Below, one piece after another: positions 4,981 to 5,562 of a stretch of 21,904 bases of DNA. Origin of the DNA: Octopus sinensis. Its lineage: Eukaryota. Made by a program: the position numbers. The stretch covers positions 1 to 21,904 of the forward strand of contig NW_021823621.1 of assembly GCF_006345805.1 (NCBI RefSeq). The letters run 5' to 3'. Positions within the stretch are counted from its first letter, which is position 1. Every line of letters begins with the position of its first letter.

Positions 4981-5026
<46 letters not shown>

Positions 5027-5562
5027 GAAAGAATGGAGTTGAACAGCGATTTAACAAAATTCCTTTATTCTCGACATATGTTTCGAAGGCTGCATATTCC
5101 TAATTTCGAAGAATAAGGGGTGTATTATGCCGCCTTCTCATCAGGAAAAACAAGGAACTTATGACAGCATCAAGATGAACAAAAGCTCTTAGATGACTGC
5201 CCACACGGAGCCCATATCGCTATGAGCTCCGTGTGGGCATCATCTAAGAGCTTTTGTTCATCTTGATGCTGACATAAGTTCCTTGTTTTTCCTGATGAGA
5301 AGGCGGCATAATGCACCCCTTATTCCTTCGAAATTAGGAATATGCAGCCTTCGAAAGCTATGTCGAGAATAAAGGAATTTTGTTAAATCGTCGTTCAACT
5401 CCATTCTTTCATTTATTTGTATTAAAAAACACACAAATTTCCACACGAAAGCACGTGATCTCTGCCCTTGGCATGTAGCTTCAACCGTGTCTTTCTGACG
5501 TGAATTTGCTACACAGGTATCGGTTAACCGAATTATCCATACTAAGATAATTCATTCAACTA

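What the first reader, a model, noticed from the sequence alone, without database searches (positions are those of the whole stretch)
5019..5418. 400-bp near-perfect palindrome with a hammerhead ribozyme in each arm
Seen: two 198-bp arms, about 95% identical by eye, joined by a 4-nt loop. Each arm has CUGAUGA-stem II-GAAA-stem III-GUC with an extended stem I, and the two ribozymes point outward on opposite strands. Known: Penelope-like element pLTRs and retrozymes carry type I hammerheads with palindromic stem III, and Penelope insertions often contain inverted pLTRs. Inference: a transcript from either strand contains one ribozyme plus its full antisense, so folding into a ~200-bp hairpin would compete with self-cleavage. 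This could be a self-silenced ribozyme, a siRNA precursor or an ADAR substrate, which matters in cephalopods with very high A-to-I editing. There is no RT/GIY-YIG ORF nearby, so the unit is non-autonomous.
Basis: partly seen in the sequence, partly recalled or inferred. Interest (0 to 1): 0.85.

Follow-up and report, generated by a model that had tools for sequence, protein, structure and literature searches.

The report
Inverted retroelement ends carrying hammerhead ribozymes
A 400-base palindrome made of two head-to-head copies of a short repeat that carries a hammerhead ribozyme motif, intact in one copy and damaged in the other; it looks like an ordinary leftover of a Penelope-like retrotransposon insertion.

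Summary
The palindrome is real. Its arms are 5019-5216 and 5221-5418, joined by the loop TCGC, and 190 of 199 aligned columns are identical.

The left arm, read on the minus strand, holds a complete type I hammerhead (5160-5057, cleavage after C5073). Helix III is 2 bp with a palindromic AUAU loop. It is the only Rfam hit when that arm is searched alone: Hammerhead_1, 22.8 bits, E 0.0011, below the gathering score of 34. My descriptor found 0 and 2 such loci in two sets of 20 Mb of random sequence.

The right arm keeps the core and helices I and II. Two substitutions break the 15.2-16.2 pair, and it gives no Rfam hit.

Several features fit published descriptions of Penelope-like element (PLE) insertions:
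- head-to-head orientation;
- ribozymes 54 nt from the outer ends;
- 198-bp arms;
- a (TA)n flank;
- no RT or GIY-YIG ORF in the window.

Homology to a PLE could not be tested, because no eukaryotic genome or repeat library was available.

A read-through transcript would fold into a duplex of -331.7 kcal/mol that buries the ribozyme. siRNA or ADAR roles are untested. I rate this a new member of a known kind, of low to moderate interest.

The parts
4982..5018 (.). (TA)n microsatellite directly abutting the left end of the palindrome
   Evidence: A pure TA run at 4982-5019 (its last base is also the first base of the arm); TRF array at 4901-5023; flank printed.
5019..5216 (-). Left arm. The sense strand of the repeat unit is the minus strand, with its 3' end pointing left (outward).
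   Evidence: Inverted repeats I1 and I2; alignment with 190 of 199 columns identical; GC 0.384.
5057..5160 (-). Complete type I hammerhead motif:
- helix I 5' strand, 5160-5145;
- core CUGAUGA, 5144-5138;
- helix II, 5137-5085 (53 nt);
- GAAA, 5084-5081;
- helix III and loop CAUAUG, 5080-5075;
- U16.1 at 5074 and C17 at 5073;
- helix I 3' strand, 5072-5057.
Predicted cleavage is between 5073 and 5072.
   Evidence: Rfam RF00163 matches 5150-5067, 22.8 bits, E 0.0011, model positions 1-45 of 45, and is the only hit for that arm. It is the only locus in the window that passes the descriptor. Structure written out.
5217..5220 (.). 4-nt centre (TCGC) of the palindrome, the head-to-head junction
   Evidence: hairpin loop of 4 nt.
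5221..5418 (+). Right arm. The sense strand is the plus strand, with its 3' end pointing right (outward).
   Evidence: (95.5% to the left arm; no third copy in the window).
5276..5380 (+). Degenerate copy of the hammerhead. The core (5292-5298), helix I, helix II (5299-5352), GAAA (5353-5356) and GUC (5362-5364) are kept. Positions 5357-5358 (GC instead of CA) break the C15.2-G16.2 pair and the palindromic loop.
   Evidence: Differences listed. No hammerhead hit at E<=10. It passes the descriptor only when helix III is not required. It has 1 helix III pair against 2 in the left arm.
5419..5566 (.). 148-nt non-repetitive stretch between the palindrome and the next (TA)n. It is unclear whether it belongs to the insertion or is target DNA.
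   Evidence: No other match in the window; GC 0.385.
5567..5636 (.). (TA)n array to the right
   Evidence: TRF; pure run at 5567-5596.

Best explanation
This is a decayed, non-autonomous retroelement insertion. Two 5'-truncated, roughly 198-bp 3'-terminal copies of a hammerhead-bearing repeat are joined head-to-head. The repeat is the kind of unit that forms the pseudo-LTR of Penelope-like elements (PLEs) and of the retrozymes derived from them. The insertion lies at the edge of a (TA)n microsatellite.

Shown:
- the palindrome itself;
- a complete type I hammerhead motif in the left arm (minus strand);
- a copy in the right arm whose helix III is broken by two adjacent substitutions;
- no RT or GIY-YIG ORF in the window;
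- the overwhelming stability of the full hairpin.

Inferred:
- Both arms were made in one integration event. This could be the reverse transcriptase snapping back and self-priming at the truncation point, or priming from both cleaved target strands. The arms then diverged by about 4.5%.
- In the parent element, the hammerhead would cut multimeric transcripts by pairing its palindromic helix III (ACAUAUGU) with a second copy.
- At this locus there is no tandem partner. In either transcript the ribozyme is made after its own antisense, so the RNA would zip into a 198-bp duplex instead of cleaving.
- The locus is therefore most likely inert. At most it is an incidental source of long dsRNA.
For: Hammerhead motif:
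- All core positions are present in both arms.
- The left arm is the only Rfam hit when searched alone: Hammerhead_1, full model, E 0.0011.
- It is the only descriptor hit in 21,904 nt on both strands. The null gave 0 and 2 loci per 20 Mb.
- The extended helices have chance probabilities of 7.5e-6 for helix I and 2.4e-4 for helix II.
- MFE folds of single arms recover helices I and II, with z-scores of -2.5 and -3.98.
- A control CTGATGA site gave nothing.

PLE-like layout:
- The ribozymes point outward, so the copies lie head-to-head. C17 is 54 nt from each outer end.
- Head-to-head is the most frequent inverted form. It often has palindromes at the junction, which the authors attribute to self-priming, and pLTRs of 181-218 bp are reported (PMC3846280, passages).
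- A PLE protein cleaves and extends both target strands in vitro (PMC11167929, passages).
- Dual HHRs on opposite strands 100-700 bp apart were seen in Schistosoma (PMC4209133).
- Naiad PLEs prefer (TA)n targets, and a similar microsatellite bias is hypothesised for Neptune PLEs. A pure TA run abuts the left end here.
- A second inverted-repeat element in the window is also embedded in (TA)n.

Non-autonomy: 0 of 142 ORFs scanned matched RT or GIY-YIG.

A real locus rather than a fold-back artefact: the arms differ at 9 of 199 columns, 7 of them substitutions.

Hairpin dominance: -331.7 kcal/mol, z = -43.5. The hammerhead fold makes up 0.4% (left) and 0.009% (right) of a single arm's ensemble.
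Against: - The Rfam score of 22.8 bits is below the gathering score of 34. The motif was missed in the whole-window search and in the 531-nt search.
- Helix II spans 53-54 nt. Canonical metazoan motifs have 4 bp, and PLE minimal motifs have 7-8 bp.
- No PLE ORF, PLE consensus or further copy could be compared, so PLE descent rests on layout alone.
- Protein-level searches with arm translations found nothing.
- The right end of the palindrome does not abut (TA)n. A 148-nt stretch intervenes, which is much longer than the 30-40 bp PLE 'tail'.
- TA-rich targets are also preferred by some DNA transposons (from my own knowledge).
- With two copies there is no covariation. 4 of the 9 differences fall inside the 104-105 nt ribozyme span, so there is no sign of purifying selection.
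- The source organism is unknown.
Confidence: 0.6

Rival explanations
1. It is a palindromic non-autonomous DNA transposon (a MITE or foldback element) that targets TA sites. The hammerhead-like motif arose by chance or by capture of a retroelement fragment.
For: - The whole element is an inverted repeat, and a TA run abuts its left end.
- A second, unrelated inverted-repeat element in the window is also embedded in (TA)n.
- Palindromic repeats such as a frog Harbinger element are known (PMC5625713, passages).
- No PLE ORF lies nearby.
Against: - The chance rate of the motif is very low.
- The outward orientation and near-end position of the ribozymes match PLE descriptions. A MITE predicts neither.
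- No target-site duplication can be read. The left flank is TA repeat and the right flank begins GTATTA.
Confidence: 0.15
2. The palindrome is a working hairpin-RNA gene. It is kept because its transcript feeds siRNA/piRNA production or ADAR hyper-editing against the hammerhead-bearing repeat family, or because it regulates the ribozyme by sequestering it.
For: - The predicted duplex is 198 bp and nearly perfect, at -331.7 kcal/mol.
- Long, nearly perfect dsRNA from inverted repeats is the main ADAR substrate, and octopus shows one of the strongest hyper-editing signals (PMC5625713, passages).
- Small-RNA profiles over inverted PLE structures are reported in a rotifer (PMC3846280, passages).
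Against: - There is no evidence of transcription, small RNAs or editing.
- The arms have drifted apart by 4.5%, including a hit to helix III, with no sign of constraint.
- Any transcribed inverted repeat would behave this way without being selected for it.
- The source organism is unverified.
Confidence: 0.1
3. It is an assembly artefact: a fold-back chimeric read or a collapsed or mis-joined repeat created the palindrome.
For: PLE tandem and inverted structures are reported to cause assembly problems (PMC8557442 and PMC3846280, passages). The junction is exactly symmetric, with a 4-nt centre.
Against: The arms differ at 9 of 199 columns, and 7 of those are substitutions. A fold-back copy of one molecule would give identical arms. 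The same papers argue that such structures are real.
Confidence: 0.07
4. It is a chance motif: the palindrome is real but the hammerhead resemblance is coincidental.
For: The score is below Rfam's gathering threshold. Scaled to a genome of several Gb, 22.8 bits would be expected by chance a few times (my arithmetic). Helix II is atypically long.
Against: Strict descriptor hits numbered 0 in 40 Mb of random sequence, and the helix extensions add a further factor of about 7e-5. The 2-bp helix III with a palindromic tetraloop and the G10.1-C11.1 pair are family hallmarks that no search step required.
Confidence: 0.05

Closest known systems
Hammerhead ribozymes in the pseudo-LTRs of Penelope-like elements (Cervera & de la Pena 2014, PMC4209133; Craig et al. 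2021, PMC8557442; Arkhipova et al. 2013, PMC3846280)
   Same: - A type I motif with a short, palindromic helix III.
- The ribozyme lies near the 3' end of a roughly 200-bp terminal unit.
- Head-to-head inverted 5'-truncated copies.
- Association with a microsatellite.
- Dual motifs on opposite strands a few hundred bp apart.
   Different: - No RT/GIY-YIG ORF in the window, and no demonstrated sequence homology to any PLE.
- Helix II spans 53-54 nt, against 7-8 bp in PLE minimal motifs.
- Helix III is present (2 bp plus a tetraloop), whereas the minimal PLE motifs lack it.
- No 30-40 bp tail is recognisable.
Metazoan non-LTR retrozymes (Cervera & de la Pena 2020, PMC7229834; Li, Clavereau & Pollet 2026, bioRxiv 10.64898/2026.07.22.740005)
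   Same: - A canonical-style type I hammerhead with a 2-bp helix III and a tetraloop, described as typical of invertebrates.
- The unit size falls within 170-400 nt.
- GC is 0.38-0.39, under the 45% limit.
- The unit is non-autonomous.
   Different: Retrozymes are head-to-tail tandem arrays that yield circular RNAs. Here the two copies are inverted and no direct repeat exists in the window.
Rfam Hammerhead_1 (RF00163)
   Same: The full-length match covers model positions 1-45, with every core nucleotide and helices I and III aligned.
   Different: The score is 22.8 bits against a gathering score of 34. There is a 49-nt insertion where the model has 10 nt in helix II. The right arm does not match at all.
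Palindromic repeats that form ADAR-edited dsRNA, such as the frog Harbinger repeat (Porath et al. 2017, PMC5625713)
   Same: A single repeat locus able to fold into a long, nearly perfect duplex by itself.
   Different: There is no expression or editing evidence here, and the origin appears retroelement-like rather than from a DNA transposon.

Membership tests
Hammerhead ribozyme, type I | Conserved core: C3 U4 G5 A6 N7 G8 A9, G12 A13 A14, A15.1-U16.1, and H17 not G | tested here: met
   Both arms carry CUGAUGA, GAAA and GUC in the right order and spacing.
Hammerhead ribozyme, type I | Three helices around the core, with helix I open-ended and helix III closed | tested here: met
   Met for the left arm: helix I is 5+9 bp, helix II is 6+5 bp, and helix III is 2 bp plus the loop AUAU. 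The right arm has only one helix III pair and fails.
Hammerhead ribozyme, type I | Score at or above Rfam's gathering threshold (34 bits for RF00163) | tested here: not met
   The left arm scores 22.8 bits. There were no hits at gathering thresholds in the window, and the right arm gave no hit at E<=10.
Hammerhead ribozyme, type I | Helices maintained by covariation among family copies | not testable with these tools
   Only two copies exist in the window, and no eukaryotic genome collection was open. Between the two copies there are 0 compensatory changes and 1 disrupted pair.
Hammerhead ribozyme, type I | Site-specific self-cleavage in Mg2+ | not testable with these tools
   This needs a bench assay.
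Penelope-like element (pLTR fragment) | Linked ORF with a telomerase-like RT and a GIY-YIG endonuclease, or sequence homology to a curated PLE | tested here: not met
   0 of 142 ORFs (>=50 aa, entropy-filtered from 209) matched RT or GIY-YIG. Homology to Repbase or Dfam PLEs could not be tested. Copies truncated at the 5' end are expected to lack the ORF.
Penelope-like element (pLTR fragment) | Hammerhead near the 3' end of the unit | tested here: met
   C17 lies 54 nt from each outer end. The feature is described in PMC8557442.
Penelope-like element (pLTR fragment) | Adjacent inverted 5'-truncated copy, typically head-to-head | tested here: met
   The sense strands run from the centre outward in both arms. 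The feature is described in PMC8557442 and PMC3846280.
Penelope-like element (pLTR fragment) | Insertion into a microsatellite, and an optional 30-40 bp tail at one end | tested here: inconclusive
   The left end abuts (TA)n. The right end is 148 nt from the next (TA)n, and no tail is recognisable. Pure (TA)>=6 runs cover 853 of 21,904 nt.
Metazoan non-LTR retrozyme | Head-to-tail tandem repeats of 170-400 bp, each with a type I hammerhead | tested here: not met
   blastn of the arm against the window finds only itself and the inverted copy. TRF reports no such array.
MITE / foldback DNA transposon | Terminal inverted repeats bounded by a target-site duplication of fixed length, in many copies | tested here: inconclusive
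   The inverted repeat spans the whole element. The flanks are TA repeat on the left and GTATTA on the right, so no duplication can be read. Copy number is not testable.

The most novel reading that the evidence does not exclude
Head-to-head insertion turns a hammerhead-bearing retroelement end into its own trap. Read-through transcription from either side yields a 198-bp perfect-stem hairpin that blocks self-cleavage. The hairpin is then processed into small RNAs, or hyper-edited by ADAR, and so acts in trans against every active copy of the same PLE or retrozyme family. Such palindromes would be selected silencers rather than debris.
Probability: 0.08. Interest if true: 0.55.

Novelty: new member of a known kind. 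Interest (0 to 1): 0.25.

Why it matters
If the reading is right, the locus is one more example of a documented pattern. Penelope-like elements and their retrozyme derivatives scatter hammerhead motifs through invertebrate genomes, often as inverted pairs.

It has modest value in two ways:
- It is a clean, small case in which one copy keeps the motif and its mirror copy has lost helix III. This gives a natural active and inactive pair for cleavage assays.
- It could serve as a test bed for whether inverted ribozyme pairs are silenced by their own hairpin.

It does not open a new class of system.

Tried and rejected
- Rfam at gathering thresholds on the whole window gave 0 hits.
- Rfam by E-value on 4950-5480 gave 33 matches at E<=10 and no hammerhead. 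The high-scoring ones were microRNA-precursor models (on the long hairpin and on the flanking repeat), which I treat as artefacts. The rest were weak matches to other families.
- Looking for more copies or a PLE ORF through translated arm sequences failed. The 48-aa sense frame searched against longer proteins gave 4 candidates, none at E<=1. The 97-aa antisense frame searched against near lengths gave 1 candidate, none at E<=0.01.
- A 19-nt stretch of core plus helix II, scanned over bacterial and archaeal genomes, gave 8 exact matches. That compares with 4.3 expected by chance under uniform base composition. The matches extend to only 19-25 nt, and no Rfam family lies there. I reject them as chance.
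- I tested whether the second inverted-repeat element (9507-10493) also holds a hammerhead. It has CUGAAGA at 10267 (+) and 9715 (-). No downstream GAAA/UH arrangement fits by eye. There was no Rfam hit in 10116-10400 and no descriptor hit. It has no sequence similarity to the first element.
- An alternative register uses the first GAAA (H17 at 5336 or 5101, helix II 5 bp, helix I 4 bp, no helix III). It passes only the loosest descriptor, so I set it aside.
- No tRNA-like part was found.
Copy number, PLE linkage and covariation therefore stayed unchecked.
- Supplementary figures of the hammerhead and PLE papers, which hold the motif alignments, were not seen. They could show whether long helix II variants are already catalogued.

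Full report
**Observation**

The sequence at 5019-5418 is a true near-perfect palindrome. The repeat finder reports two collinear inverted pairs: 5015-5120 with 5317-5422 (92%) and 5111-5196 with 5240-5325 (98%). A global alignment of the left arm (read on the minus strand) with the right arm gives 190 identical columns out of 199. There are 4 transitions, 3 transversions and 2 one-base indels, and the centre is the 4-nt TCGC at 5217-5220. blastn of one arm against the window finds only itself and its mirror copy. Folded as RNA, the 400 nt form one hairpin of -331.7 kcal/mol, against a shuffle mean of -90.6 (z = -43.5).

**The hammerhead**

CTGATGA occurs three times in the window on both strands. 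Two of these are at mirror positions in the arms: 5292 (+) and 5144 (-).

On the minus strand of the left arm the order is as follows:
- helix I 5' strand, 5160-5145;
- CUGAUGA, 5144-5138;
- helix II, 5137-5085;
- GAAA, 5084-5081;
- CAUAUG, 5080-5075;
- U16.1 at 5074 and C17 at 5073;
- helix I 3' strand, 5072-5057.

Helix I is 5 bp, a 2x2 internal loop, then 9 bp. Helix II starts with G10.1-C11.1 and is 6 bp, a G.A mismatch, then 5 bp, with a further 29-nt distal part. Helix III is A-U and C-G closing the loop AUAU, so ACAUAUGU is a perfect palindrome. Plain MFE folding of either arm recovers helices I and II without any constraint, with z-scores of -2.5 and -3.98.

Rfam results:
- The whole window at gathering thresholds gave nothing.
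- The 531-nt stretch searched by E-value gave no hammerhead. Its high-scoring matches were microRNA-precursor models on the long hairpin and the flanking repeat.
- The left arm searched alone (126 nt, laxer filters) gave Hammerhead_1 (RF00163) as its single hit: 5150-5067 on the minus strand, 22.8 bits, E = 0.0011. Model positions 1-45 of 45 align, and 49 nt lie where the model has 10 nt in helix II. This is below the gathering score of 34.
- By my arithmetic, that E-value corresponds to about 0.2 for the whole window over all families, and about 5e-5 for this one prespecified family.
- The right arm searched the same way gave no hammerhead.
- A control stretch around the third CTGATGA gave none either.

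My own descriptor required CUGANGA; helix II of at least 4 bp within 80 nt; GAAA; helix III of 1-3 bp with a palindromic loop of 0, 2 or 4 nt; U, then H; and helix I of at least 4 bp. It found one locus in the window, the left-arm motif. In first-order Markov sequence it found 0 loci in 20 Mb of window composition and 2 in 20 Mb of element composition. It found none with helix II >=6 bp and helix I >=5 bp. The observed helix extensions have chance probabilities of 7.5e-6 for helix I and 2.4e-4 for helix II. Those last features were chosen after seeing the sequence.

I conclude that the left-arm motif is not a chance match. The right arm reads GAAAGCUAUGUC. The two adjacent substitutions at 5357-5358 remove the C15.2-G16.2 pair and the palindrome. 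'A ribozyme in each arm' therefore holds only for the core and helices I and II.

**What it is**

Published descriptions fit the layout closely.
- Cervera & de la Pena 2014 (PMC4209133, parts 1-2 of the text read) state that most metazoan hammerheads are type I. They have a helix III of 1-2 bp capped by a 2-4 nt palindromic loop, are too unstable to cleave as monomers, and are active as dimers in tandem copies. Such motifs sit in PLE pseudo-LTRs, and dual motifs 100-700 bp apart on opposite strands occur.
- Craig et al. 2021 (PMC8557442, passages) describe PLE insertions as highly 5'-truncated, often with an inverted 5'-truncated copy immediately adjacent. The hammerheads lie near the 3' ends, and there is an optional 30-40 bp tail. 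They report insertion bias for microsatellites, (TA)n for Naiads, and hypothesise a similar bias for Neptune. They note that such structures trouble assemblies.
- Arkhipova et al. 2013 (PMC3846280, passages) report pLTRs of 181-218 bp and head-to-head as the most frequent inverted form. They find palindromes at the junction and interpret these as self-priming.
- A 2024 study (PMC11167929, passages) shows that a PLE protein cleaves and extends both target strands in vitro, and that hammerhead cleavage is not needed for insertion in vitro.
- Li et al. 2026 (bioRxiv 10.64898/2026.07.22.740005, abstract and section 14) relate retrozymes to PLE pLTRs.

Here the arms are 198 bp. The ribozyme sense strands run from the centre outward, which is head-to-head. 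C17 is 54 nt from each outer end, and a pure TA run abuts the left end. No RT or GIY-YIG family was found in 142 ORFs of at least 50 aa. These were 142 of 209 ORFs, because I dropped 67 low-entropy ORFs before the scan. Two spurious sub-threshold hits to unrelated families were seen.

**Limits**

- I could not compare the arm with any eukaryotic genome or repeat library. PLE descent is therefore an inference from architecture, not from homology.
- Two protein-level attempts to find relatives of arm translations failed.
- The right end is followed by 148 nt of unique sequence before the next (TA)n. This is longer than a PLE tail and remains unexplained.
- Helix II is far longer than in published canonical or minimal motifs. 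I did not see the supplementary alignments of those papers.
- With two copies there is no covariation. 4 of the 9 differences lie within the ribozyme span, and none lies in the core, in helix I or in the proximal 11 bp of helix II.
- The claim that the window is cephalopod could not be verified. No tRNA, no Rfam family and no informative coding sequence was found. Window GC is 0.352.

**How it most likely works**

Inference: one integration event produced both arms, either by snap-back self-priming at the truncation point or by priming on both cleaved strands. The exact symmetry around a 4-nt centre favours snap-back. The arms have since diverged by about 4.5%.

In the parent element the hammerhead would act on multimeric transcripts through a dimeric helix III. 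At this locus there is no tandem partner. In both possible transcripts the ribozyme lies in the 3' half, after its own antisense. The nearest-neighbour model gives the three-helix fold 0.4% (left) and 0.009% (right) of a single arm's ensemble. In the full transcript it faces a competitor of -331.7 kcal/mol. Self-cleavage here is therefore unlikely.

If the locus is transcribed, the product is a long dsRNA of the kind that ADAR hyper-edits. Porath et al. 2017 (PMC5625713, passages) report that octopus is among the strongest hyper-editors and is rich in near-perfect dsRNA-forming loci. Any such role is untested and would not need selection.

**Rivals**

- A TA-targeting palindromic DNA transposon with a chance or captured motif (0.15).
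- A selected hairpin-RNA gene (0.10).
- An assembly fold-back (0.07). This is disfavoured by the nine differences between the arms.
- A pure chance motif (0.05).

**Comparison and novelty**

The locus works like, and most probably is, a hammerhead-bearing PLE or retrozyme terminal unit in the common inverted configuration. It fails Rfam's gathering score and the tandem-array criterion of retrozymes, and the PLE ORF criterion is unmet in the window. I therefore file it as a probable new member of a known kind.

For context:
- Rfam-based annotation found 235 Hammerhead_1 loci in the giant squid genome (PMC6962438, passage).
- The paper by Lunse and colleagues on dimeric PLE hammerheads is recalled from memory. 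It appeared only in the reference lists of papers listed.

Interest is 0.25.

Noticed in passing
window 9507-10493: A second inverted-repeat element, unrelated in sequence. Its arms are about 9507-9870 and 10109-10493 (90.4% over 387 columns) around a unique centre of about 250 nt. (TA)n abuts the left end, and a 44-nt extension precedes (AT)n on the right. It has no hammerhead by Rfam or by my descriptor. It could be another PLE-type inverted insertion of an HHR-less kind such as Naiad.
   Followed up: partly
window 8477-9079 (+), three frames: 8477-8821, 8799-8984, 8822-9079: A decayed, frameshifted C-terminal end of a LINE-type retrotransposon ORF2. 37 database proteins matched at E<=1e-3. 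The long ones carry RVT_1 and zf-RVT but no GIY-YIG. The fragment aligns to residues 1115-1173 of a 1210-aa protein. It is not a PLE.
   Followed up: yes
window 5419-5566: A 148-nt non-repetitive stretch between the palindrome and the next (TA)n array. It has no other match in the window. It is unclear whether it belongs to the insertion.
   Followed up: partly
whole window: Very dense microsatellites. TRF gives 64 rows, including (CTAT)n at 19-141, (ATGT)n at 13146-13339, (TATC)n at 20075-20183 and 20988-21078, and many (TA)n and (TG)n arrays. Pure (TA)>=6 runs cover 853 of 21,904 nt. GC is 0.352, and there are no tRNAs and no Rfam families.
   Followed up: no
window 5292-5336 (+) and 5144-5101 (-): An alternative, weaker hammerhead register uses the first GAAA (helix II 5 bp, helix I 4 bp, no helix III). 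It is found only by the loosest descriptor.
   Followed up: partly
window 5136-5300: Several Rfam microRNA precursor models (mir-561, mir-578, MIR2587, mir-1278 and others) score 30-47 bits on the central hairpin, all below their gathering scores. These are generic hairpin matches, not evidence of a microRNA.
   Followed up: yes
L001-L008 (bacterial contigs): A 19-nt stretch of the hammerhead core plus helix II has 8 exact matches in prokaryotic genomes, the longest 25 nt. That compares with 4.3 expected by chance under uniform base composition, and no RNA family lies there.
   Followed up: yes
window 16174-16387: A 117-bp unit repeated 1.8 times (80% matches) inside an AT/GT-rich microsatellite region.
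   Followed up: no
window 7750-7955 and 18112-18340: Long polypyrimidine (CCTCC-type) and (TCT)n/(TGT)n tracts. They give long low-complexity open frames on both strands.
   Followed up: no
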